Assembly (NCBI GenBank): GCA_000165345.1
Contig: CM000430.1
Coordinates: 448,001 to 512,000, forward strand
Direction: 5' to 3'
Length of the DNA: 64,000 nt
Position numbers and translations under genes: made by a program. The notes beneath the pieces are model-generated. The model was given only the letters and a program-made list of their open reading frames with translations, searched no databases and was not told the DNA's origin. This document shows, one piece after another, positions 227 through 45,303 of this stretch; the stretch's first letter is position 1; each line of letters starts with the position of its first letter.

Positions 227-2728
227 TCACTTAACACCCTTTAAAATATTTGATAATGATTGTATTGAACAGATTATAGTTACAGCTTGTTTTGCCTTGC
301 ATACGACTATTAGGTAATATATTAATTCTGTATATGAAAAAACTATTCTACACCTTTCAAAGTCTGAGCGTAGGATTCTCTGAGGAGATCGAATTGTTTT
401 TTTGAGCAAAACTTTTAATTCAAGGGGAAGGAAGCTGTTGTGAACCAATTCTGTCATTTCAAATTTGACAATTCCACATAGTTTAAATACGTAGCTCCAG
501 ATTGAAGACCTTATGGGATTAGTTGTGGGAACCTTATAAATATCACAAATTGTTGTAATGTTCTTATTGCAGTTATATAAAAGAATGTCTAATTCGTCCT
601 TAATACACTTTGAGCATTCTCCTGAGTAAATCGATAAAATAGACCATGCAGTTTCAGAATAGAATTCATATTCTAGCATTTGAATTGAAAAACTATTAAG
701 CATGCTCATGAAGTGTGCATTTTTATTTGTAAGGCATCCATTCTTCAATTCTTTTTTGTTTTTTCTAAACTCAAAGGTCTTTTCATTGTCTTTAAAACTA
801 AATTTTTTGTTGGATTCCAGCTTATTTAGAACTAAATTAGGGCTTTCTATCCCAATAAAGTTGCTTATATGTTTGAATCTTCCGGATAAAGAATTAAACT
901 GCAATTTTGGTTTAGAATTCATCACAGAGGAAAGAAGAACTCGATCAGCCTTATGCTTGTCAGAGTTTGATCTGAATAGAGGAATTTCGTCTTTGCTAAT
1001 ACCTAAAATATCGCCTTGGGGCGGAAAGTGATTAAGCAGATCCTTTATTCTAATCAAAGTTGAAACCTCTCCTTCATATTTTTGTTTTGAATGATACTCA
1101 CTCTCAAGATTTTTTTCATTATCATTAAAATTCTTAGTGTTGATTTGAGTGTATTCTTGCAGATATTCATTGGATCTAATTTGACTATCTGAAAATAAGG
1201 GCGTTCTATCTGAATTAGAGTAGTCTTTCCCCTCGTTAATTTGTTTCCTTTTTAACTTTACACTAATTGAGCTATCTAATATCCACTTTAAATCTATAAA
1301 GGAATTTATTTGAGAAAATAATCTAAGGTTGTAAATCTTGTTTAAACTGAAAATTGGAAGCTTTAAAAAACTTAATTTTGGCATTGACATATTTTTGTTT
1401 GTATTTGAAGTTGAATGATTGTTTTTTATACGATGGGTATAATTTTTTTCTTCCTTTTCTACATCTATATATTCTGATAAAATTTCTTTATAGTATGATG
1501 TTGTTAAGCTATCGGGATTTGAATTTTCATGAAAGAAATTCGATGAGATTACCTTTCGATATTCAAAGCAATCTTTCATAGTGGCTGGGTTTGGTTTGTA
1601 GCATGTATTCCCATCGCAATTCGGTCCTTCCAATGGATCTGGGCCAAGCTCCCAATGATCCATAGATGTTATTCCAAATGAACATGACAATTGCGATATT
1701 GATTGTATTGTTGTAACAATACATAAAATATGGCATAGTTCTGTTATTGTCCAAACTTGAGTATCTGAAACTTCTCCTATCAAATGGTTCATAAGTTCAT
1801 TAGAAATGTAGGCAGGTTCAAATGTAATACATTTTAGAAATTCAAAAAGCGCAAAGAATTTAACTGGTAGAGAATCTGAAGGATTTTCCAACCATTCAAT
1901 TGGACCATTGTTAAATATATACATTTGCATTTCTAATTTGATCATGTAATCGTTGTCGTATAAAGATGAACATAAAATCCCAATAAAGTGACGGTAGTGT
2001 AGTGGTAAAGCACCAAAGTTTTGATCTTCCATATTTATTTTGTAAGATTTGAGTAGCGCTTTTGCATATTCTGGAAGTATGTAAACAATTCTAAATACAG
2101 ACGGAATTCTCCCATAAAATGTATTGAAAACATCTTTCCAAAAAGTTTCGTTCTCATCTAAATAAAACTTGTTAGGAAAAAACCCAGGGGTACCAGGAAC
2201 TAAATACTCTGGAGAAATGAATCTTCCACAAGGAAGACAATGTTGATTATTTTCGCTATTTTCTGATGTAAATATTTTGATTGCTTCTCTAATTGAAATG
2301 CTACTTCCTCCCAGGGTGATGTTGAATAATAAATCCGGGTGTATATCTTTGATTTTCGTATAAAATAATGTGCTACTATACTCTGTTAATAACTTCTTTG
2401 GGTCCTCGTCTCTTCTTGAACCAATTGACCACGTTTCATTCAAACTGTTGATAATTGATTGCCAACTATTGGAAATAGACTCTCGAATATCTGAGTAGGG
2501 ATTTAGGCAAGTTGATAAGCGAAGAAGAATGCATAAAGATTGTTCAAATTTCCAGTAACTTGTTTCTCCATTTAACAATATTTGTTTCTGTATTACGTTG
2601 ACTCTATTTTCTATGTATCTTCCAATACTATTTGATTTTAGTCTTCCCCAGTTTGGAATATCCAAAAAAATACTAACAAATTCCTTATAGTTAACTAAAA
2701 GAAGAGATATTGGAAAACCATTATCCAT
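227..2728 (-). CDS. SESN: Sestrin (PA26) homolog with both Sesn-A and Sesn-C regions and a long low-complexity linker
   Basis: 833-aa ORF. The N-terminal part has HYRHFIGILCSS...NNGPIEWLEN...FEFLKCITFEPAYISNELMNHL...VWTITELCHILCIVTTIQSISQLSCSFGI, which parallels the sestrin block ...LVTHHL..GGDPAWL...INKLLAHRPWLITKEHI...[28 protein letters not shown]. The C-terminus has RSSIWSYVFKLCGIVKFE...LKVLLKKTI...YTELIYYLIVVCKAKQAVTIICSIQSL, which parallels [21 protein letters not shown]...LKVYIKTV...NLLLLEARMQAALLYALRAIT. Confidence 0.6.
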   Translation of the reverse strand: MDNGFPISLLLVNYKEFVSIFLDIPNWGRLKSNSIGRYIENRVNVIQKQILLNGETSYWKFEQSLCILLRLSTCLNPYSDIRESISNSWQSIINSLNETWSIGSRRDEDPKKLLTEYSSTLFYTKIKDIHPDLLFNITLGGSSISIREAIKIFTSENSENNQHCLPCGRFISPEYLVPGTPGFFPNKFYLDENETFWKDVFNTFYGRIPSVFRIVYILPEYAKALLKSYKINMEDQNFGALPLHYRHFIGILCSSLYDNDYMIKLEMQMYIFNNGPIEWLENPSDSLPVKFFALFEFLKCITFEPAYISNELMNHLIGEVSDTQVWTITELCHILCIVTTIQSISQLSCSFGITSMDHWELGPDPLEGPNCDGNTCYKPNPATMKDCFEYRKVISSNFFHENSNPDSLTTSYYKEILSEYIDVEKEEKNYTHRIKNNHSTSNTNKNMSMPKLSFLKLPIFSLNKIYNLRLFSQINSFIDLKWILDSSISVKLKRKQINEGKDYSNSDRTPLFSDSQIRSNEYLQEYTQINTKNFNDNEKNLESEYHSKQKYEGEVSTLIRIKDLLNHFPPQGDILGISKDEIPLFRSNSDKHKADRVLLSSVMNSKPKLQFNSLSGRFKHISNFIGIESPNLVLNKLESNKKFSFKDNEKTFEFRKNKKELKNGCLTNKNAHFMSMLNSFSIQMLEYEFYSETAWSILSIYSGECSKCIKDELDILLYNCNKNITTICDIYKVPTTNPIRSSIWSYVFKLCGIVKFEMTELVHNSFLPLELKVLLKKTIRSPQRILRSDFERCRIVFSYTELIYYLIVVCKAKQAVTIICSIQSLSNILKGVK

Positions 2729-2890: not shown

Positions 2891-4276
2891 TCAACAGTAA
2901 AATCTAGAATCTAATGTATTACTATGAATATTAGTACAATGAAAATTATGGAATGAGCCAATACCTCCAGTTCCATTTATATTTTTATTAGCTTCTGCAT
3001 TACTCATTAAAATATTTCCCAGTCCTGATTCAACTTGGGAGTTACATAGTGTATTGCCAGATACCAGGTTTTGATGATTTTGCCTTCCTAATTGTCTCTG
3101 AAGGAGCTGCTCATTGCATTTATCAACAATAAAGGATAAAACTACGGATGGTAGGGTCTCTAATCCATTCATGGACCCATCGGAAGCAAATTTTGCACTA
3201 ACTGGCAGTGTTGTCAGGCCACTAAATGATGATGGAAAGTATGAAATTGTAATGTAAGAAAGATTTTGCGAAATTTCTGCGCATGGATGAATATTCCTGT
3301 TTTCTCTAAATGAAATAGACTGTTGTTGTTCACGCCATTGATCTGTTTTAAACGGATAGCCTACTGAAAATCCTGTAACTTGTGCCGAGCTGTTTGCATT
3401 AGAAATTCCGGTATTAAAAGCTCTGTAATGCTCGTTTGTATTGGATATATATTGATTATCGCACTTTAACTGTGTGCTGTTTTGGATATAACCACCATTA
3501 AAAGTATCAATTTTTGGATTGTCTGAACATAGAGAAATAGATGAATCATCTTTTAACTGGTTATTAAAATGGTTAACACTGTGCTCGGAATTAGTATTAT
3601 TTACATTTTTACCTGAAATAATTTTTGACAAGTTTCTCCTTCTTGACCATCTCTGTCTATCTGCAACTCTACAGGGCTCACATGATCTCATATGGGGTGT
3701 TGCATCACGCTTGTGACATCTCCAGCAAAGTTTTGGGTCGTCTCTACGTCTCCTTACCATGTTATTTTCTTTATTAATTGATTTAAATTTGTCTGAATTT
3801 ACCTTTTCTGTCAGATTATTCTCCAAATACGAAAACAAATTAAGGTTTTGGCTGGACTCCACATATTGATTTTCAGTTTTAAATTGGTTTTGATCTTTTA
3901 ATAAACAGTCTATTATTATTGATTTTGGAGTTTCTTCTTGAGAAAATGAGATAGACTCTGAAATCTTTTTATGATTTGTATTACCTCTGTGTATTTCCAG
4001 AAATTTTGGATTGCATTCAGAAGCGTTCACTTCTTCTGAAATATTGTTCGTACTGAAGCTACATTTGGAATTACTATGATTGTAATTTACATTTCCGTTT
4101 ACGTTTACGTTAACATTTACATTTAACTTATTACTGGTATTTTGAATACTTGTATTCAAGATTTTAGGAGAGTTGCTTAAATTGCTTGATGTCTCGTTCC
4201 AATTGCAAGCCTCTTCATCAAAAGATAAGATCATATCAGAGTTGATATATATTTCAGGAATTTGTATCCCTTCCAT
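2891..4276 (-). CDS. Hypothetical low-complexity protein with a basic Cys cluster (CWRCHKRDATPHMRSCEPCR)
   Basis: 461-aa ORF with ATG at 4276-4274. It has N/S-rich low complexity including an NVNVNVNGNVNYN tract, and a C-x2-C-x11-C-x2-C motif flanked by RRRR. No confident family assignment. Confidence 0.4.
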   Translation of the reverse strand: MEGIQIPEIYINSDMILSFDEEACNWNETSSNLSNSPKILNTSIQNTSNKLNVNVNVNVNGNVNYNHSNSKCSFSTNNISEEVNASECNPKFLEIHRGNTNHKKISESISFSQEETPKSIIIDCLLKDQNQFKTENQYVESSQNLNLFSYLENNLTEKVNSDKFKSINKENNMVRRRRDDPKLCWRCHKRDATPHMRSCEPCRVADRQRWSRRRNLSKIISGKNVNNTNSEHSVNHFNNQLKDDSSISLCSDNPKIDTFNGGYIQNSTQLKCDNQYISNTNEHYRAFNTGISNANSSAQVTGFSVGYPFKTDQWREQQQSISFRENRNIHPCAEISQNLSYITISYFPSSFSGLTTLPVSAKFASDGSMNGLETLPSVVLSFIVDKCNEQLLQRQLGRQNHQNLVSGNTLCNSQVESGLGNILMSNAEANKNINGTGGIGSFHNFHCTNIHSNTLDSRFYC

Positions 4277-4606: not shown

Positions 4607-5419
4607 ATGATGCAGAGTGAAGGTAGGTTTAACTCATCTTGGTCATTCTGTCCAAGCTAATTATCTTTAGACTGTAGTGATACTACCTTTACTACAACAA
4701 ATAATCCCTACTTAAGACTCTTAAATGCGTATATTGAAAAGACAACTGTTTACCCCAAATCCAGATGGTGTTTTTTATTCATTTTGATTTCAATTTTTGC
4801 ATTTAGAGTATATCATTGTCAAGGTATGTTACATTGTCATTAAAGTAGAATAATAACGTTTCGATTTATTATAAAATATATTTAACTTATTCTATATTTA
4901 TTTGGTATATTTTCTTAAATGCACTAATTATAGGTTTTTTTATAGTTACATATGGCCTTTCAATTTATTTATTAAATTTATTCATTGGGTTTTTGTCTCC
5001 GCAAATTGATCCAGAAGAAGAAGGTATGGTTCTTCCCATGCATGACACTCAAGAGTTCAGACCATTTGAAAGGAGGCTTCCAGAATTTAAATTTTGGATA
5101 TCTGCAACAAAAGCGACTATTGCTTCAATATTTCTAACATTCTTTGAAGTGTTTGACCTGCCTGTTTTCTGGCCGATACTTCTAATTTACTTTATTTTTT
5201 TGTTCATTTTGACAATGAGACAGCAAATTCAGGTAAGTGTATAAAATTATTATTGCATTTTAAAATAGTGACTAATATCCTTAGCATATGATAAAATACC
5301 GTTATGTTCCTTTTTCATGGGGGAAGCAAACGTATGGAGATATTACAAAGGGAAAACCAACAATAAATAAGAAAACAAGCCTGGGGGGAATAGGCTTGAC
5401 TTTGATAGGCGATAAGTAA
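4607..5419 (+). CDS. RER1: RER1 (retrieval receptor for ER membrane proteins), 4 exons
   Basis: Exons are 4607-4622, 4671-4823, 4934-5232 and 5285-5419. Introns are 4623-4670 (48 nt, GTAGGT..TTTAG), 4824-4933 (110 nt, GTATGT..TATAG) and 5233-5284 (52 nt, GTAAGT..CTTAG). The spliced protein is MMQSED...[54 protein letters not shown]...[22 protein letters not shown]...[38 protein letters not shown]. It matches the RER1 signature blocks RW....[58 protein letters not shown] and RQIKHMIKYRYIPF. Only exon 3 appears in the ORF track, at 4993-5244 with a TTG 'start'. Confidence 0.75.
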
Positions 5420-21370: not shown

Positions 21371-24300
21371 CTAAACCTGGGGTCTTGACTGTACAATAGC
21401 TATACTAAATGATTTTATGCTTGATCCTTGGCAATCTTCAATTATACAGCCCTCAATATCCTGTGGTATTTCGTCAAACTCATCTTGAACATAAAACGCT
21501 ATTGTTGCCAATTGTTTCAGTGCTTCATTTCTGTAATCTTGATCTTTTATTATTGGCTGACTCAGATACTTAACATATTTACTAATAGGATCGAATAGCG
21601 GAACTGACTGAAATACTCCTGCTCCTGCAAACCCTTCAATATCTTCTGCATTTGAGTCTGACCTAAAAATGAAGTTGCAAGGTATGTTACAATGATCAAT
21701 TAAGCTTCTATTATTTTGAGAAATTGGATTAAACATTGCAGTTGATTTTGAGGGAAACGAAACGACATTGATATTTTGAATAAAACTTTTATCTTTGTAA
21801 TTTTTACAGTTCCTTTTTCTTAATGCAGTAAATCCCATAGATTTCCCAAGTGTATTCGAAACTAATGTTTCCCCTAATCCAATAACCAATTCTCCATACA
21901 TCTCTTCGTATTCTGCTAAGTTAATATTCTTATTCTGAATTGGGTTTTTGCTGTGTAGTACAAAAGCGTATTTGGCATTCATTAACCTTTGAATTGCAAT
22001 CGACATGTATACATTTGACAGTGGTAATCCAATTTTTTTCATGTTCAAGAATGAAATTGGCTGATATACAGACATCCAAACCTTTATAATTTTCTCCCAA
22101 ATTAATTTCATCGAGTTGGAATGTTTTTGAATCCTTTCTTTATTAATTGCTTTTATAGTATCAACATTTATATTTTCTAAATCTAGCTGTACAAGTATTT
22201 TCATCGCATTTATTAATTCCTCAATTAGCTGAGTGCATGGTTCGACTTCATATTCAATGATATTGCAAACATTTTTAAGTATTTCAGATGCCTCTGGATT
22301 TTCTATTTTACATTGTTCTTCAAGAATATTTAGTTGGGAGGTTATTTTTTCAAATGTGCTGCTGTTCAATAATTTGTTCAATGTACCAAATGGTAAAGAA
22401 ACACAACTTGGTACAAAAAAAGGTAGTTCAATACTTTTTGATGTAAATAATCGTCTTAGCTTGACGAGGTTTAATGCCTTTTGCCCGACATTATTATTAT
22501 CCATTTCGCTTGGTAGTAAAACCCATTTGTTTAAGCCTTTAATTTTGTTTTTAAATTCGAAAAATCTTGATTTATACTTTACCTTTACTTGACTCAAAGA
22601 TTTGGTTGCAATCAATTCATTTTTATCTAAAATCTCATTGTTTTTACTGATATCTAGCCTCAAATCGCTTCTAATTTGTAAATTAATTATTTCATTTTCC
22701 TCTATAGAATTAATGAATTCTGAAATTTGAGGGTTTTGGCAAACAACTAGTAAAACATTCATATTCCTTGCTCTAACCGATAAATGAGAAAGTAAATCTG
22801 GTGAGTTTTCAGGGTTTGTCAAAATTATCCCAATTACATTCATTGGAATATCTTCCTCTCCAGAAATATTCGAGCAAGAAATTATTTTCTTATACGGATC
22901 TTCAGCAAGTTCTGTTATTTTGTTCAATTTCTTAAAAATTCCAGTGAAAATTTGGTCATCTCTCCATGAGGGGTGATAACTAATAAATTGCCAATCACTC
23001 AATTCATTAGGATCAGTTTTATTTAATAAATATTTATTTACTCGTTTAATTTGAAGTGAAATTGTGGAATATAGTGTAGAACGCAAAATTTCATCCATAA
23101 AATTTTTTATTATTGGATCGTCTTTAGATAGACCAATGCTTCTTCCGAAGAAAGTAACTTTTGGGTTCCATATTGAAAAAATATTATCCATCATTGATCC
23201 AATAAAAAGCTGTAGCCTATCTACTAAACTCTTCAAAATAAGAATATAGTTTTCTGTTGATTTATTCAATATTTTGAATTCTTTCCAATCAAAAATAATT
23301 GCTTCTAATTCTTTATTACACGGGTCATGCCCAAATAATATCCAGATGAAAGAATTCATTTCATCAATGAGATGTATAATATTATCATAGTTGTTATTTA
23401 TAGTGCAGATTGTTTGTATAAACATGCACTGCAAGTTTTCCAGGCCTAAATCCAAGTACATTATTTCTTTAATTGCATGAAAATTGCAAGTATCTGTATC
23501 CAATTGTTTCCCTCCGTATAAATTATAAATCAAATTTAAAATTTCTTCTCTTGCCCTATTAACATGCATTAATCGACCATGTAAAACATTTAAGTCTTTG
23601 GTGTTATCAAACCGTTTATTTTCCCCAAATATCACAGATGCGCAGATATTTTGTGATCTTTCATCCAAGTACTCTCTTGAATAATGAAATGATCTTTGAA
23701 GGTTTGATGCTTCGTGAACATCCACCAGCACCTCTAAATATTGTTCAAAATCAGATGCAAGAGTATTAACATCTAAGAAAGGAGGAATATATGGCTTTGA
23801 AGTAATTGGACGGTCATAAGATCTAATTTTTTCCCAAGATAATCCTTCTTCATGAAGTATCTTTGAAAAAATTTCTTCATTACCATTGTTTCTAAGGTAT
23901 CCAATAATTGAACGACATATTCCAACATCATCCGGAGTTGTATTATTATGTAACTTTTGATGCCATTGCTCGTAAAAGGTTCCATGATCTTCTGGAATAC
24001 GATTCTTATGCATAATATGTAGTATCCTATCTCTTACTTCCTGCCCACGAGATCCGCCTCTAATAATTGACTGGGCAATTAATCTAATTTGGTATCTGTA
24101 TTGAGGCATCTCCAGCCACTTTGATATTAGCGTTAATGAAGCTGTTTCTGCTGATTGAGCTAATAACCTCGGAGCAGTGTTATAATTTCTTTGCCAATCT
24201 AATACTCCAAGAGAATTAAATCTCATCCAAATCATAATCCATGCCCAGAATTCTTCACCACAAAGTATTGCGTCTCTAATATTCTCGGAGTTTATTGCTA

Positions 24301-26329
24301 TCAAATTATGATCAGTAGACTCTCGTTTGTTATTGGTTTCAAAGTCATACCATAATATTACATTTGAATTAGATATAAATTTGTAAGTACCATTTATAAA
24401 TTCATTTGACCATTTTTTAATAATCTGATCCATTAAATTATATCTGTGCATCAAAGTTATACTTCCCCATTCAACTTCTGCATTAATGATATCAAATACT
24501 ATATCTGACCAAATTCCTTTCCATCTGTCATTTTTTTTTTCTTGGAAGGAGATTACAATTTCTATATCTTTATCTCCTTCCTTGTGCCAACAAACATGAC
24601 CATTCTCGTCTAATGTCTTAAAAACACAAACGAACCGATCAAATGGCATTGAATCTATTAATTTGATTTTTATTTCAACTTCTTGTTCAAATATGTAATC
24701 ATCTACTTTATTTATTTCAGGCATATCGATTTCAGTTGAATCTTCACTTATTTCGTTGTATTCTGAAGATGAACAAAAATTTGAAAGATTTCTCCAGCTC
24801 TTTTTCCCTCTTATTGTTCGATCCAACATTCCACAGTGCAATACAAGTTTTCTTTTTGAAATCGTTTTTAATCTGATTATGCTATTTCCATTTTGAAGAG
24901 CAGATAGAATATGTAATTTTCCAATACCTTCGGAAATATCTACAATTTTATTTGTAATAATAAATTCAGATGAAATTAAATTAACCTTTAAAAATTCTTC
25001 GATTGATTTGTCTATTTCGGATAGAAATCTTTTTAGATTAAATTCCCAAGTTTGATTAGTTTTTTTCTTATTTATATCAAAGATAGAATTTAGAGACTTT
25101 TCTTCTTCATGATGGATAGAATATGGTAATTTAAAAATAAAGTCTTTATTGTTCTCTGACTTCACCCACTTAATTGGATATTTTGAAGTTTGTTTTGGCT
25201 TAAGCTTGATTACATAAACAAAACCTTTAAATAGCTGTAAAATTTCAATTGGAAATATTAATTTACATATAGAGTAATACTTTGTGATAATAAAATTTGT
25301 TTCGACAGACATTTCATCTATCCTAGTAAAATTTGAAATTAGATTGTGCCTTCTCAAATATTCGTATGGAGATAACCAATTTATCTTCTGCGTACATTTT
25401 GTAAAGCCAAAGTGAAGAGCCAATTCATATTCTTCGAGGTTAAATTTATTTTGATAATTATAGCTTGAGTTACCAATATCCGTATAAACTATTAATTCAA
25501 AAAAATCGTTGTTTTGAAATTTTTCATATGTTTTACAGGATACGACCCAAACACAATTATTCTCTGTGGTAAATTCATTGTATGAATATATAAATGAATC
25601 ATTAAGGATGAAGTGGGCATTTTTGTCTGTTGTATTTAATGATTTGGATTTTAAAGTATCTTCTGAATCCAATCCAATTTCAGAGAATTTTTGGAATAAA
25701 TGTTGATTTTGTTGGTCTTCGGAAATAATTAGTTCTATCCACTCTAAAAGGAATAACACTCTTCCAATTGGAATAAAAAAGTCAGAATTGTGTCTATCCA
25801 AATCTTTAATCCATATTTTCTCAGTTAAAAATAGTTCATTATTGGTAGAGTGAGGTGAAATTGAATACAGTACAAATGATATTCCCCACTCTTTGTTTAT
25901 TCCGTTAAGCCAATCCGGAGAATTTTTACAATTTTCTGTTTCATTAAATTCAACTTCATTAATAGAGATATATTTATGGGAAGATTTTAGATGAAGAATA
26001 TCAAGCATAATTTTGCAAGAATAAAATGAAAAATCGTCCGATATTTTAAGGCCAGTTTTACACGAGATTCCATCGTCATTTTTCTCTATTGTAGAACCAT
26101 TGGATAAAAAAAGACAATTTAAAGGCTGCATCCATTTAGATTTACTTTTTGGAACAATTCCCCAATGAAGTGTTATCAATTGATTTAAAAAATTATTATT
26201 TCGATATAAAAAGTTAATTTTTAAAGCTCTATTTTTATTTTCAAGTTCAACTTTGACTTGAATTTTTCCTCCGTTTGAGCAGTTAAAGTTATAAAGTTGA
26301 AACAATTGTATACCATTACCTTCATTCAT
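21371..26329 (-). CDS. GWD: Alpha-glucan, water dikinase (GWD/R1-type starch/amylopectin phosphorylating enzyme)
   Basis: 1652 aa. The C-terminal PEP-utilising/PPDK-like nucleotide-binding region carries the diagnostic motif IFRSDSNAEDIEGFAGAGVFQSVP (compare plant RSDSNGEDLEGYAGAGLYDSVP) and ELVIGLGETLVSN. The N-terminus has starch-binding-like repeats. Confidence 0.85.
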   Translation of the reverse strand: MNEGNGIQLFQLYNFNCSNGGKIQVKVELENKNRALKINFLYRNNNFLNQLITLHWGIVPKSKSKWMQPLNCLFLSNGSTIEKNDDGISCKTGLKISDDFSFYSCKIMLDILHLKSSHKYISINEVEFNETENCKNSPDWLNGINKEWGISFVLYSISPHSTNNELFLTEKIWIKDLDRHNSDFFIPIGRVLFLLEWIELIISEDQQNQHLFQKFSEIGLDSEDTLKSKSLNTTDKNAHFILNDSFIYSYNEFTTENNCVWVVSCKTYEKFQNNDFFELIVYTDIGNSSYNYQNKFNLEEYELALHFGFTKCTQKINWLSPYEYLRRHNLISNFTRIDEMSVETNFIITKYYSICKLIFPIEILQLFKGFVYVIKLKPKQTSKYPIKWVKSENNKDFIFKLPYSIHHEEEKSLNSIFDINKKKTNQTWEFNLKRFLSEIDKSIEEFLKVNLISSEFIITNKIVDISEGIGKLHILSALQNGNSIIRLKTISKRKLVLHCGMLDRTIRGKKSWRNLSNFCSSSEYNEISEDSTEIDMPEINKVDDYIFEQEVEIKIKLIDSMPFDRFVCVFKTLDENGHVCWHKEGDKDIEIVISFQEKKNDRWKGIWSDIVFDIINAEVEWGSITLMHRYNLMDQIIKKWSNEFINGTYKFISNSNVILWYDFETNNKRESTDHNLIAINSENIRDAILCGEEFWAWIMIWMRFNSLGVLDWQRNYNTAPRLLAQSAETASLTLISKWLEMPQYRYQIRLIAQSIIRGGSRGQEVRDRILHIMHKNRIPEDHGTFYEQWHQKLHNNTTPDDVGICRSIIGYLRNNGNEEIFSKILHEEGLSWEKIRSYDRPITSKPYIPPFLDVNTLASDFEQYLEVLVDVHEASNLQRSFHYSREYLDERSQNICASVIFGENKRFDNTKDLNVLHGRLMHVNRAREEILNLIYNLYGGKQLDTDTCNFHAIKEIMYLDLGLENLQCMFIQTICTINNNYDNIIHLIDEMNSFIWILFGHDPCNKELEAIIFDWKEFKILNKSTENYILILKSLVDRLQLFIGSMMDNIFSIWNPKVTFFGRSIGLSKDDPIIKNFMDEILRSTLYSTISLQIKRVNKYLLNKTDPNELSDWQFISYHPSWRDDQIFTGIFKKLNKITELAEDPYKKIISCSNISGEEDIPMNVIGIILTNPENSPDLLSHLSVRARNMNVLLVVCQNPQISEFINSIEENEIINLQIRSDLRLDISKNNEILDKNELIATKSLSQVKVKYKSRFFEFKNKIKGLNKWVLLPSEMDNNNVGQKALNLVKLRRLFTSKSIELPFFVPSCVSLPFGTLNKLLNSSTFEKITSQLNILEEQCKIENPEASEILKNVCNIIEYEVEPCTQLIEELINAMKILVQLDLENINVDTIKAINKERIQKHSNSMKLIWEKIIKVWMSVYQPISFLNMKKIGLPLSNVYMSIAIQRLMNAKYAFVLHSKNPIQNKNINLAEYEEMYGELVIGLGETLVSNTLGKSMGFTALRKRNCKNYKDKSFIQNINVVSFPSKSTAMFNPISQNNRSLIDHCNIPCNFIFRSDSNAEDIEGFAGAGVFQSVPLFDPISKYVKYLSQPIIKDQDYRNEALKQLATIAFYVQDEFDEIPQDIEGCIIEDCQGSSIKSFSIAIVQSRPQV

Positions 26330-44299: not shown

Positions 44300-45303
44300 A
44301 TGGATTCTACAGCTTTAAAAGAAGAGATAATCGCACTCGAAAGTATATTTGGAGAAAGCCTTTACAACTTAGATAAGAGTGGACTCCCTTCCCCCGGTGT
44401 AAATTTTAATGATAAAGAAAGATCCCTTAAGTATTTTGTAAGTTTAAACTCGTAACTTTTTTCAATTTTTTAATATTTCTTCAGTCGGAATATCTTGATG
44501 GGATCTTGGAAATTAAAATTAGCATTCCATTTGGATACCCCTTAGAAGCGTCTTCTTTTTGTATATCTTCATGGTATTTTGACGTTCATTATTTAACAAA
44601 TTCAGAAGAATTACCGCAATCAAAAAATATCTCTCTAACTTCCAATACATTCAAGCAGTTAAAGGAACTAATTGAAACAAGAGTAGAAAGCAAAACCCCA
44701 ATTTTATTTGAGATAATTGACATTTTGATTTCCTGTAATATTGATCACGAGAAATATAAAACAAAATCAAGTATTAAAGAACAAAGAATTGAAACTAACC
44801 ACTTTGATCAATTTGATGGAGATAAAATTTTTGGTGTAACGCATGGCGAACCTATAATTGATCGAAAAAGTGTTTTCCAAGCTCATGCGTGTAAGGTAGA
44901 AACAGTTGAACAAGTTAAAAAAGTTATCAAATGGTTGCTTTCGAACCCAAAGATTGCTAAAGCAACGCACAATATTTGGTCATATAGAATATTCAAGGAG
45001 AAAAATTTCGCAGAAGTAACTGAAGGATCTTTCCCCATTGGGTACGATATCATATCACAAGATCACGACTCGGATGGCGAGAATGCAGCAGGAGGCAGAC
45101 TTCAACATCTTCTTGAAATTACTAATGCAAAGAATGTATTCGTTATGGTGTCTAGATGGTACGGGGGTATTCAACTAGGGCCAGACAGGTTTAAACATAT
45201 TAATAATGCTGCAAGGCTGATCTTAGAAAAATCGGGCTTAATAACTAGATCGGGGACTTTTTATAAACCGCAATCGAATAAAAACAAAAAGAATCAAATT
45301 TAA
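44300..45303 (+). CDS. IMPACT: IMPACT/YIH1 homolog (RWD domain plus UPF0029/YigZ domain), 2 exons
   Basis: Exon 1 is 44300-44398 (MDSTALKEEIIALESIFGESLYNLDKSGLPSPG). The intron is 44399-44484 (86 nt, GTAATT..TTCAG). Exon 2 is 44485-45303 (SEYLDGILEIKISIPFGYP... then ...RKSVFQAHACKV...IAKATHNIWSYRI...DGENAAGGRLQHLLEI...VFVMVSRWYGGIQLGPDRFKHINNAARLIL). The RWD block matches EEIEALAAIYGE...LPNEYP and the C-terminus matches the IMPACT family. An alternative donor at 44437 (GTAAGT) breaks the frame. The track shows only 44506-45303 with a TTG 'start'. Confidence 0.7.

What the first reader, a model, noticed from the sequence alone, without database searches (positions are those of the whole stretch)
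227..2728. Full Sestrin homolog (Sesn-A and Sesn-C) split by about 350 aa of low-complexity linker
Both sestrin halves are recognisable: the GGDPxWL-region block with ...ITELCHILCIVTTIQSISQLSCSFGI, and the C-terminal IWSYVFKLCGI...LKVLLKKTI block. They are separated by an unusually long N/S/K-rich insertion. Sestrins are amino-acid/TORC1-pathway regulators (leucine sensing via GATOR2). Apicomplexans have a minimal TOR pathway, so a conserved sestrin there is unexpected and biologically interesting.
Basis: partly seen in the sequence, partly recalled or inferred. Interest (0 to 1): 0.6.

Follow-up and report, generated by a model that had tools for sequence, protein, structure and literature searches.

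The report
Divergent sestrin in TOR-less Cryptosporidium
This gene of the gut parasite Cryptosporidium parvum encodes a genuine but highly diverged sestrin that keeps the sestrin fold and a conserved ligand pocket but has lost the motifs other sestrins use for GATOR2/TOR control and antioxidant chemistry, in a parasite reported to have no TOR kinase.

Summary

The spacer of about 325 aa is N/S/K-rich and predicted disordered. It is not uniform: it holds an invariant 27-aa motif and a conserved 67-aa island.

The functional reading needs revising. All 10 Cryptosporidium orthologs have replaced the redox Cys125 (N), the LAHRPW core motif (ITFEPA), the DDYDY GATOR2 hinge (FEMTE), D364, lid T374/Y375 and latch H86. 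They keep R390, E451, T386 and W-[S/T]-x-x-E-L. The apicomplexan relative Eleutheroschizon keeps the canonical motifs.

The cores are under strong purifying selection (dN/dS 0.02-0.06). C. parvum has no detectable TOR-complex subunits (van Dam 2011). The likeliest role is therefore a TOR-independent ligand-binding scaffold; its partner is unknown.

Family identity already appears in some GenBank names, but no paper was found. This is a new variant of a known kind, of moderate interest.

The parts
227..2728 (-). Complete intron-less ORF, 833 aa plus stop codon. It is the C. parvum sestrin ortholog, identical to EAK88772.1 / Q5CTP1.
2237..2728 (-). N-terminal domain, aa 1-164. Aa 7-100 are helical at pLDDT about 95. 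Aa 101-164 are a less conserved insert with a small beta element. The segment around aa 60-90 (LRLSTCLNPYSDIRESI) aligns with the N-terminal region of other non-metazoan sestrins.
   Evidence: (weak HMM hits); no Pfam hit
2180..2236 (-). Conserved motif LPCGRFISPEYLVPGTPGF, aa 165-183. It aligns with the human SESN2 segment 'PSAFIPVEEVL' that precedes Sesn-A.
1670..2161 (-). Sesn-A, the first AhpD-like half, aa 190-353, at pLDDT about 92-98.
   Evidence: dN/dS 0.057
1952..1954 (-). N259, the position of the SESN2 catalytic Cys125. It is Asn in all 10 Cryptosporidium proteins and Cys in 105 of 119 other sestrins.
1811..1828 (-). ITFEPA, aa 301-306, in place of the LAHRPW core motif. H168 becomes F and W171 becomes A; only the Pro is kept.
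1736..1753 (-). WTITEL, aa 326-331, the retained WSLAEL motif (W189, S/T190, E193). It is identical in Eleutheroschizon.
1589..1669 (-). Genus-invariant post-Sesn-A motif TSMDHWELGPDPLEGxNCDGNTCYKP, aa 354-380. It is predicted disordered and has no counterpart in other sestrins.
1070..1588 (-). Variable, N/S/K-rich, predicted-disordered spacer 1, aa 381-553. It contains a short conserved SYYKEILSEY segment at aa 411-420.
   Evidence: (dN/dS 0.27)
869..1069 (-). Conserved island within the spacer, aa 554-620 (…LIRIKDLLNHFPPQGDI…FRSNSDKHKADRVLLSSVMNSKP…). It is helical at pLDDT 66-86 and is shared only with Eleutheroschizon.
   Evidence: (dN/dS 0.052)
695..868 (-). Variable N/S/K-rich spacer 2, aa 621-678. 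It includes the only stretch that is truly low-entropy.
230..694 (-). Sesn-C, the second AhpD-like half, aa 679-833. It is the most constrained part of the protein.
   Evidence: dN/dS 0.020
560..571 (-). CNKN, aa 720-723, in place of the TYNT leucine-pocket lid. T374 becomes C, Y375 becomes N and T377 becomes N.
509..526 (-). TTNPIR, aa 735-740. It carries the retained T386 and R390 equivalents (T736, R740), invariant in the genus.
449..463 (-). FEMTE, aa 756-760, in place of the DDYDY GATOR2-binding hinge (SDAFE in C. muris and C. serpentis).
326..328 (-). E801, the retained equivalent of the SESN2 leucine-amine ligand E451.

Best explanation
SHOWN. The gene is the vertically inherited Cryptosporidium ortholog of sestrin. 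It is a fused pair of AhpD-like domains (Sesn-A and Sesn-C) that pack exactly as in human SESN2. A folded helical N-terminal domain precedes them, and a spacer of about 325 aa, mostly disordered, splits them.

The clade is the most divergent two-domain sestrin lineage in the sample. It has specifically replaced the residues behind the two known sestrin activities. These are the redox Cys125, and the GATOR2-binding elements (the DDYDY hinge and D364) together with the LAHRPW core motif and the metazoan leucine lid and latch.

The pocket pair R740/E801 (SESN2 R390/E451), T736 (T386), F797 and the WTITEL motif stay invariant. Purifying selection on both cores is very strong.

INFERRED. C. parvum is reported to lack all TOR-complex subunits, so the protein cannot act as a GATOR2-TORC1 brake. 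It is also not a Cys-based peroxidase.

The most likely mechanism is a TOR-independent scaffold or sensor. The retained Arg/Glu pocket in Sesn-C would bind a small zwitterionic ligand, such as an amino acid or a similar metabolite that this auxotrophic parasite scavenges. Clade-specific conserved surfaces would couple that state to a lineage-specific partner. Those surfaces are the invariant TSMDHWELGPDPLEGxNCDGNTCYKP motif, the island at aa 554-620 and the N-terminal domain.

AMPK or the autophagy machinery are the obvious candidate partners, because both are retained in Cryptosporidium and sestrins touch both elsewhere. Neither the ligand nor the partner is identified.

For: Orthology and vertical descent: there are intact orthologs in 9+ species at 42-98% identity. 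Synteny is conserved from C. ubiquitum to C. muris. The derived signatures WTITELC and TTxPIR and the island are shared with the apicomplexan Eleutheroschizon.

Motif states come from a 130-sequence alignment anchored on a PDB-verified SESN2 sequence. Of the 41 positions conserved at 85% or more in 120 other sestrins, C. parvum keeps 27, against a median of 38 and a 5th percentile of 31 elsewhere. The 14 changes cluster in C125, LAHRPW, DDYDY, T374 and H454.

Constraint: dN/dS is 0.057 for Sesn-A, 0.020 for Sesn-C, 0.052 for the island and 0.16-0.27 for the spacers.

TOR absence: van Dam 2011, PMC3236823. The importance of the motifs and their conservation outside metazoa: Haidurov & Budanov 2024, PMC11429811. 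AMPK-gamma is present in Cryptosporidium according to a 2026 preprint, and Cryptosporidium has a canonical ATG8 (PMC8161075).
Against: No ligand, partner, localisation or expression data were available. R390, E451 and T386 are near-universal in sestrins (114, 106 and 111 of 119), so their retention may reflect fold stability rather than ligand binding.

The hinge still carries two acidic residues (E757/D, E760), and the WSxxEL motif is intact, so residual binding to a SEH1/WDR24-like propeller cannot be excluded. I could not test whether Cryptosporidium retains WDR24, MIOS or WDR59. The absence of TOR rests on a 2011 survey that I could not re-run.
Confidence: 0.6

Rival explanations
1. Canonical sestrin. 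It is a leucine sensor that binds and inhibits GATOR2 when leucine is low, and so controls a minimal TORC1 pathway.
For: It has the PA26 fold. R390, E451, T386, F447 and the W189/T190/E193 motif are retained. Two acidic residues remain in the hinge.
Against: No TOR-complex subunit was detected in C. parvum (PMC3236823). DDYDY becomes FEMTE/SDAFE, including the loss of Y410, which is Tyr in 113 of 119 others. D364 becomes K, T374 becomes C, Y375 becomes N, H86 becomes L and W444 becomes R. Mutation of D406/D407, or of T374, alone abolishes GATOR2 or leucine binding in SESN2, as summarised in PMC11429811.
Confidence: 0.08
2. TOR-independent regulator of AMPK and/or autophagy, through the sestrin functions that do not need GATOR2. 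It would act mainly as an adaptor, with no small-molecule ligand.
For: Sestrins activate AMPK and promote autophagy in animals, and a Dictyostelium sestrin-like protein is implicated in autophagy (reference 60 in PMC11429811). Cryptosporidium keeps AMPK-gamma and a canonical ATG8. Clade-specific conserved linear motifs (aa 354-380 and 554-620) look like docking sites.
Against: There is no direct evidence. The sestrin surfaces that bind AMPK are not defined, so nothing could be checked at residue level.
Confidence: 0.2
3. Antioxidant enzyme: an AhpD-like alkyl-hydroperoxide reductase acting through Sesn-A.
Against: The catalytic Cys125 is Asn in all 10 orthologs and H132 is Glu. The nearby Cys253 is not conserved (Ser in C. 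ryanae and C. muris).
Confidence: 0.04
4. Decaying relic with no function, left over after loss of the TOR pathway.
For: It is the most divergent lineage in the family: core identity to other sestrins has a median of 22%, against 38% among the others. It has lost 14 of 41 family-conserved positions.
Against: The 833-855-aa ORF is intact in every species sampled and synteny is conserved. dN/dS is 0.02-0.06 in the cores and island and 0.13 overall, and core identity between C. parvum and C. muris is 62%.
Confidence: 0.03

Closest known systems
Human Sestrin2 (SESN2; PDB 5dj4 / 5cuf), with animal sestrins generally
   Different: There is no Cys125, no LAHRPW, no DDYDY hinge, no D364, no TYNT lid, no H86 latch and no W444. 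It adds a folded N-terminal domain of about 160 aa. Its spacer is about 325 aa instead of about 118 aa and carries two clade-specific conserved elements. The host organism is reported to lack TOR.
Eleutheroschizon duboscqi sestrin (TSA GHVT01097058; P0012, 949 aa), the nearest non-Cryptosporidium relative found
   Same: It is apicomplexan and has a very long spacer. It shares the island just upstream of Sesn-C (HMM E~5e-5), the WTITELC and TTxPIR signatures and the KKLVCYPER-type helix.
   Different: It keeps the canonical Cys (HRCDYL), GGDPDWL, LAHRPW and HDDYHY hinge, so the motif erosion happened on the Cryptosporidium branch.
Non-metazoan sestrins (Dictyostelium purpureum XP_003291171, Spongospora A0A0H5RIX0, Amoebophrya CAD7929772, Lankesteria metandrocarpae)
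   Same: They share the N-terminal helical region ('…PFxDIRxxF…') and the P-S-x-F-I-P-type motif before Sesn-A. H132 and W444 are not conserved in them either. S190 is often Thr.
   Different: These retain C125 (except Lankesteria, which has Ala), LAHxPW and the acidic/aromatic hinge. Their spacers are short, except in Lankesteria and Amoebophrya.
Bacterial AhpD / carboxymuconolactone decarboxylase (CMD) family
   Different: There is no CxxC or catalytic Cys, and it is a fused heterodimer-like two-domain eukaryotic protein.

Membership tests
Sestrin / PA26 (Pfam PF04636) | Sequence match to the PA26 profile above the curated gathering score | tested here: met
   100.9 bits against 29.4, E 1.1e-28, in two stretches. 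All orthologs carry a precomputed PF04636 assignment.
Sestrin / PA26 (Pfam PF04636) | Two AhpD-like all-helical lobes (Sesn-A and Sesn-C) packed against each other as in SESN2 | tested here: met
Sestrin / PA26 (Pfam PF04636) | Electronegative DDYDY hinge in Sesn-C, the GATOR2-binding element. [quoted passage not shown] | tested here: not met
   It is FEMTE in C. parvum and SDAFE in C. muris. D406, Y408 and Y410 are lost, and only an acidic residue at position 407 plus E760 remain. Among other sestrins, D406 is present in 104/119 and Y410 in 113/119.
Sestrin / PA26 (Pfam PF04636) | LAHRPW core motif (P170 and W171 more than 95% conserved even outside metazoa) | tested here: not met
   It is ITFEPA. 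P305 is kept, H168 becomes F and W171 becomes A.
Sestrin / PA26 (Pfam PF04636) | WSLAEL motif (W189, S/T190, E193), the Sesn-A GATOR2 contact | tested here: met
   WTITEL, invariant in all 10 orthologs.
Sestrin / PA26 (Pfam PF04636) | Catalytic Cys125 in the CxYL motif (about 90% conserved in non-metazoan sestrins) | tested here: not met
   N259 in all 10 orthologs. Y127 is kept and H132 becomes E.
Leucine-sensing sestrins (SESN1/2 type) | Leucine-coordinating pair R390 / E451 plus T386 | tested here: met
   R740, E801 and T736 are invariant.
Leucine-sensing sestrins (SESN1/2 type) | Lid and latch residues T374, Y375, T377 and H86, and pocket floor residue W444 | tested here: not met
   They are C720, N721, N723, L218 and R794. 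T377, W444 and H132 are poorly conserved in non-metazoan sestrins generally, but T374 is Thr in 103/119.
Leucine-sensing sestrins (SESN1/2 type) | Actual binding of leucine or another amino acid | not testable with these tools
   This needs ITC or thermal shift on recombinant protein.
GATOR2-TORC1 nutrient pathway component | Presence of the partners (WDR24, SEH1L, MIOS, WDR59) and of the target (TOR, Raptor, Rag, GATOR1) in the same genome | not testable with these tools
   No tool allowed a Cryptosporidium proteome search. In the literature, no TOR-complex subunit was detected in C. parvum (PMC3236823). Table 1 of PMC5745459 lists C. parvum but its symbols were not held in the text. No paper on GATOR2 in apicomplexans was found.
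AhpD / CMD peroxidase-like family | Catalytic Cys or CxxC in the helix-turn-helix active site | tested here: not met

The most novel reading that the evidence does not exclude
The Cryptosporidium protein is a natural separation-of-function sestrin. After the lineage lost TOR, the GATOR2 hinge, the LAHRPW motif and the redox Cys decayed. The two-lobed fold and the Arg/Glu pocket stayed under very strong selection and acquired new docking motifs. That would mean the sestrin fold has an ancestral, TOR- and GATOR2-independent function, namely small-molecule sensing coupled to another effector such as AMPK or autophagy. Cryptosporidium would isolate that function in pure form.
Probability: 0.35. 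Interest if true: 0.7.

Novelty: new variant of a known kind. Interest (0 to 1): 0.5.

Why it matters
A recent comparative review (PMC11429811) argues that the GATOR2-binding motifs are the most conserved part of sestrins and define the family. Here a whole genus keeps a sestrin under tight purifying selection after losing exactly those motifs, the catalytic cysteine and, reportedly, TOR itself.

If this is confirmed, it makes a long-standing question directly testable: what sestrins do apart from GATOR2-TORC1 control and redox chemistry. C. parvum is genetically tractable, and it is an important human and veterinary pathogen that depends on scavenged amino acids.

It also corrects the reference annotation, since EAK88772.1/Q5CTP1 is still 'hypothetical protein'. 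And it cautions against transferring 'leucine sensor / TORC1 inhibitor' function to this gene by homology.

Tried and rejected
(1) The first AlphaFold run used only the 10 Cryptosporidium sequences and gave an unusable model (pLDDT 46.9). It was replaced by the 96-sequence run.

(2) The search for homologous proteins with a full-length 37-sequence family alignment returned only Cryptosporidium. Low-complexity linker words filled the 8000-candidate filter. A domain-only alignment returned a single environmental protein. The taxonomic distribution therefore rests on the unnamed representative search plus 30 named look-ups.

(3) I tested the idea that the conserved island (aa 554-620) is the stretched equivalent of the SESN-B linker helices (ALMERMQQL…SRFELEK). 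hhalign against 93 canonical linkers gave probability 0.6%, so I dropped the claim. The MAFFT placement of L261 at L470 is unreliable for the same reason.

(4) Pfam on the isolated N-terminal domain, on the spacer and on the upstream 461-aa neighbour gave no hits even at E=10.

(5) Gene neighbourhood (zuotin, Rer1, PP2C, cyclin, glutamate-5-kinase-like, kinase, C2 protein and others) gave no functional clue.

(6) The AFDB Foldseek library was unavailable, so I could not use organism-labelled structural neighbours to check Toxoplasma or Plasmodium.

(8) Literature on TOR/GATOR status: Table 1 of PMC5745459 lost its symbols, the supplements of the 2026 TOR/AMPK survey and of PMC10264103 are not held, and the reviews do not cover apicomplexans.

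(9) I considered contamination or horizontal origin and rejected both. The gene is syntenic across the genus and shares derived signatures with another apicomplexan.
Full report
WHAT IS THERE. Window 227-2728 on the minus strand is a single uninterrupted ORF of 833 codons. The window is about 31% G+C and packed with intron-poor eukaryotic genes. The protein is letter-for-letter identical to Cryptosporidium parvum Iowa II EAK88772.1 / UniProt Q5CTP1, which is named 'hypothetical protein' there. Near-identical members of the same 90% cluster are named 'Sestrin 1-like protein [C. parvum]' (KAL5370016.1), 'sestrin [C. hominis]' (KAL3129480.1) and 'PA26 p53-induced protein (sestrin) family protein [C. 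meleagridis]' (POM85301.1).

FAMILY AND FOLD. Pfam PA26 (PF04636) matches with 100.9 bits against a gathering score of 29.4 (E 1.1e-28), in two stretches. Human Sestrin2 chains in the PDB match at E~1e-9. Residues 206-365 align with SESN2 74-228 (Sesn-A), and residues 732-826 align with SESN2 382-476 (Sesn-C).

A first AlphaFold run with only the ten Cryptosporidium sequences was poor (pLDDT 46.9). A second run with a 96-sequence family alignment (A4) gave pTM 0.74. Per-region pLDDT in that model:
- N-terminal helices, aa 10-100: about 95
- Sesn-A: 92-98
- Sesn-C: about 80-97
- aa 550-620: 66-86
- aa 363-549 and 628-687: below 50

ANATOMY.
- aa 1-164: N-terminal domain. Part of it (…LRLSTCLNPYSDIRESI…) aligns with the N-terminal region of other protist sestrins.
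- aa 165-183: LPCGRFISPEYLVPGTPGF, the counterpart of human 'PSAFIPVEEVL'.
- aa 190-353: Sesn-A.
- aa 354-380: TSMDHWELGPDPLEGxNCDGNTCYKP. It is nearly invariant across the genus, predicted disordered, and has no counterpart elsewhere.
- aa 381-553: variable spacer 1 (N+S+K 36%; identity to the four distant orthologs 21%).
- aa 554-620: a conserved island (73% identity over nine orthologs, helical).
- aa 621-678: variable spacer 2 (N+S+K 43%; the only truly low-entropy stretch).
- aa 679-833: Sesn-C.

The 'about 350 aa low-complexity linker' is thus real in length and composition. It is not featureless, and its last 64 or so residues are already Sesn-C. Testing whether the island is a stretched version of the canonical SESN-B linker helices gave nothing (hhalign probability 0.6%). 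An HMM built from the Cryptosporidium island finds only the Eleutheroschizon proteins, at the equivalent position just before Sesn-C (E~5e-5 among the 170 or so fetched proteins).

RELATIVES. Orthologs exist in C. hominis, chipmunk genotype I, C. ubiquitum, C. canis, C. felis, C. ryanae, C. xiaoi, C. serpentis and C. muris at 98 to 41% identity, and also in C. meleagridis and C. tyzzeri. Synteny (zuotin, Rer1, a 460-aa unknown, sestrin, then RPN7 further on) is conserved in C. ubiquitum and C. muris.

A profile of the ten proteins was searched against 1.84 billion representative proteins. It found 344 family members at E<=1e-3, nearly all matching in two stretches. The nearest outsider is P0012 (949 aa, E 1.6e-39, three stretches), from TSA GHVT01. 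That prefix belongs to the protococcidian apicomplexan Eleutheroschizon duboscqi (PMC10304595). Other named members include the gregarine Lankesteria metandrocarpae, the syndinian Amoebophrya, Dictyostelium, Spongospora, non-Dikarya fungi, Saitoella and insects. No coccidian or haemosporidian sestrin appeared among the 30 hits I could name. That is not proof of absence.

FUNCTIONAL RESIDUES. I then aligned it with 129 family members. Residue roles are those summarised by Haidurov & Budanov 2024 (PMC11429811).

Residues retained and invariant in all ten Cryptosporidium proteins:
- Y127 (Y261)
- P170 (P305)
- W189 / S-or-T190 / E193 (W326 / T327 / E330)
- T386 (T736)
- R390 (R740)
- F447 (F797)
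- E451 (E801)

Residues replaced in all ten:
- C125 to N259 (Cys in 105/119 other sestrins)
- H132 to E
- LAHRPW to ITFEPA (H168 to F, where 103/119 have H; W171 to A, where 115/119 have W)
- H86 to L
- D364 to K (88/119 have D)
- T374 to C (103/119 have T)
- Y375 to N/D/S/G, and T377 to N/S/D/K
- DDYDY to FEMTE, or SDAFE in C. muris and C. serpentis (D406 in 104/119, Y408 as Y/F in 111/119, Y410 in 113/119)
- W444 to R
- H454 to Y

Eleutheroschizon, the environmental P0017 and Amoebophrya keep Cys125, LAHxPW and the DDY.Y hinge. Lankesteria has lost only the Cys. The erosion is therefore specific to the Cryptosporidium branch.

Quantitatively, 41 positions are conserved at 85% or more in 120 other sestrins. 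C. parvum keeps 27 of them, against a median of 38 and a 5th percentile of 31 elsewhere. The lower scorers match only Sesn-A. Core identity to other sestrins has a median of 22%, against 38% among the others.

SELECTION. Nei-Gojobori dN/dS for C. parvum against C. ubiquitum:
- Sesn-A: 0.057
- Sesn-C: 0.020
- island: 0.052
- first 100 residues: 0.12
- spacer 1: 0.27
- spacer 2: 0.16
- whole gene: 0.13

Core identity between C. parvum and C. muris is 62%. This is a working gene, not a relic.

PATHWAY CONTEXT. van Dam et al. [quoted passage not shown] Tatebe & Shiozaki 2017 report loss of Rag and GATOR1 along with TORC1 in P. falciparum. Their table lists C. parvum, but the symbols were not held in the text.

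I could not query a Cryptosporidium proteome for WDR24, MIOS or WDR59, and I found no paper on GATOR2 in apicomplexans. No paper in the searchable library discusses a sestrin of Cryptosporidium or of any apicomplexan. The held supplements of the 2024 sestrin survey do not mention these taxa. Cryptosporidium does retain AMPK-gamma (2026 preprint) and a canonical ATG8 (PMC8161075).

INTERPRETATION. Shown: this is a bona fide, vertically inherited sestrin with the canonical two-lobe packing. It has lost the residues required for the two biochemically defined sestrin activities, Cys-dependent peroxide reduction and hinge-mediated GATOR2 binding, along with the metazoan leucine lid and latch. It conserves the Arg/Glu/Thr pocket residues, the WSxxEL motif and several clade-specific elements.

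Inferred: in a TOR-less cell it cannot be a TORC1 brake. The strongest constraint lies on Sesn-C, which houses the pocket, so the simplest mechanism is a ligand-responsive scaffold whose output goes to a lineage-specific partner through the new conserved motifs. AMPK and autophagy are candidates by analogy only.

Caveats. The R/E/T residues are near-universal in the family and could be structural. Two acidic residues survive in the hinge. The absence of TOR is taken from the literature.

COMPARISON AND NOVELTY. By profile and by fold it is a member of the sestrin/PA26 family. It fails three motif-level features that the comparative literature treats as hallmarks (DDYDY, LAHRPW, Cys125). It should therefore be filed as a divergent sestrin, not as a 'leucine sensor / GATOR2 inhibitor'.

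The family identity is already in some GenBank product names, so the bare finding of a sestrin homolog in Cryptosporidium is known at annotation level. What appears undocumented is the combination of three things: clade-specific loss of the GATOR2 and redox motifs, strong purifying selection, and a TOR-less background. I rate it a new variant of a known kind, with interest 0.5.

Noticed in passing
window 1589-1669 (-), aa 354-380 of the sestrin: The 27-aa motif TSMDHWELGPDPLEGxNCDGNTCYKP is almost invariant from C. parvum to C. muris. It is nevertheless predicted disordered (pLDDT below 50) and is absent from all other sestrins. It contains His358, Cys371, Cys376 and several Asp/Glu, so it could be a docking motif or a small metal-binding knuckle. 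It remains unexplained.
   Followed up: partly
window 44506-45303 (+): A 265-aa ORF matches Pfam UPF0029, the IMPACT/YigZ family (E 1.8e-27). IMPACT-family proteins modulate GCN2-type amino-acid-starvation signalling in other eukaryotes, a TOR-independent nutrient pathway. Its presence in the same window is probably coincidental.
   Followed up: no
window 2891-4276 (-): The 461-aa ORF immediately upstream of the sestrin has no Pfam match even at E=10. It is N/S-rich and carries a Cys/Arg-rich segment (CWRCHKRDATPHMRSCEPCRVADRQRWSRRR). It is a conserved syntenic neighbour in C. ubiquitum (460 aa) and C. muris (441 aa).
   Followed up: partly
window 4993-5244 (+) versus L001 3269-4100 and L002 2995-3866: The window shows only an 83-aa ORF fragment (…[13 protein letters not shown]…). 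At the same position the orthologous loci have a called Rer1 gene (PF03248) of about 200 aa spanning about 830-870 nt. This implies a spliced Rer1 gene here, one of the rare intron-containing Cryptosporidium genes.
   Followed up: no
window 21371-26329 (-): A 1652-aa protein carries alpha-glucan water dikinase domains (GWD1_pHisD, Ig_N_CWD1, PPDK_N). It is a plant/alga-type starch-phosphorylating enzyme, consistent with amylopectin metabolism in Cryptosporidium.
   Followed up: no
P0056 (Lankesteria metandrocarpae, 812 aa) and P0051 (Amoebophrya, 749 aa): Other myzozoan sestrins are also unusually long. The gregarine Lankesteria has independently lost the catalytic Cys (Ala) while keeping LAHAPW and most of the hinge. 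This suggests the redox function is dispensable in more than one parasitic lineage.
   Followed up: partly
P0014 (134 aa, Logan assembly, 49.6-kb contig), P0010 and P0011: Short fragments from public sequencing-run assemblies match the Cryptosporidium-specific island and core at E 1e-27 to 1e-64. They are presumably from further, unnamed Cryptosporidium-like organisms in those samples.
   Followed up: no
family alignment: Non-metazoan sestrins share a conserved N-terminal helical region (consensus …RLxxxxPFxDxRxxF…) that lies outside the Pfam PA26 model and outside the ordered part of the SESN2 crystal structures. AF2 confidence for this region in C. parvum rose from about 70-85 to about 95 once those sequences were added to the alignment.
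   Followed up: partly
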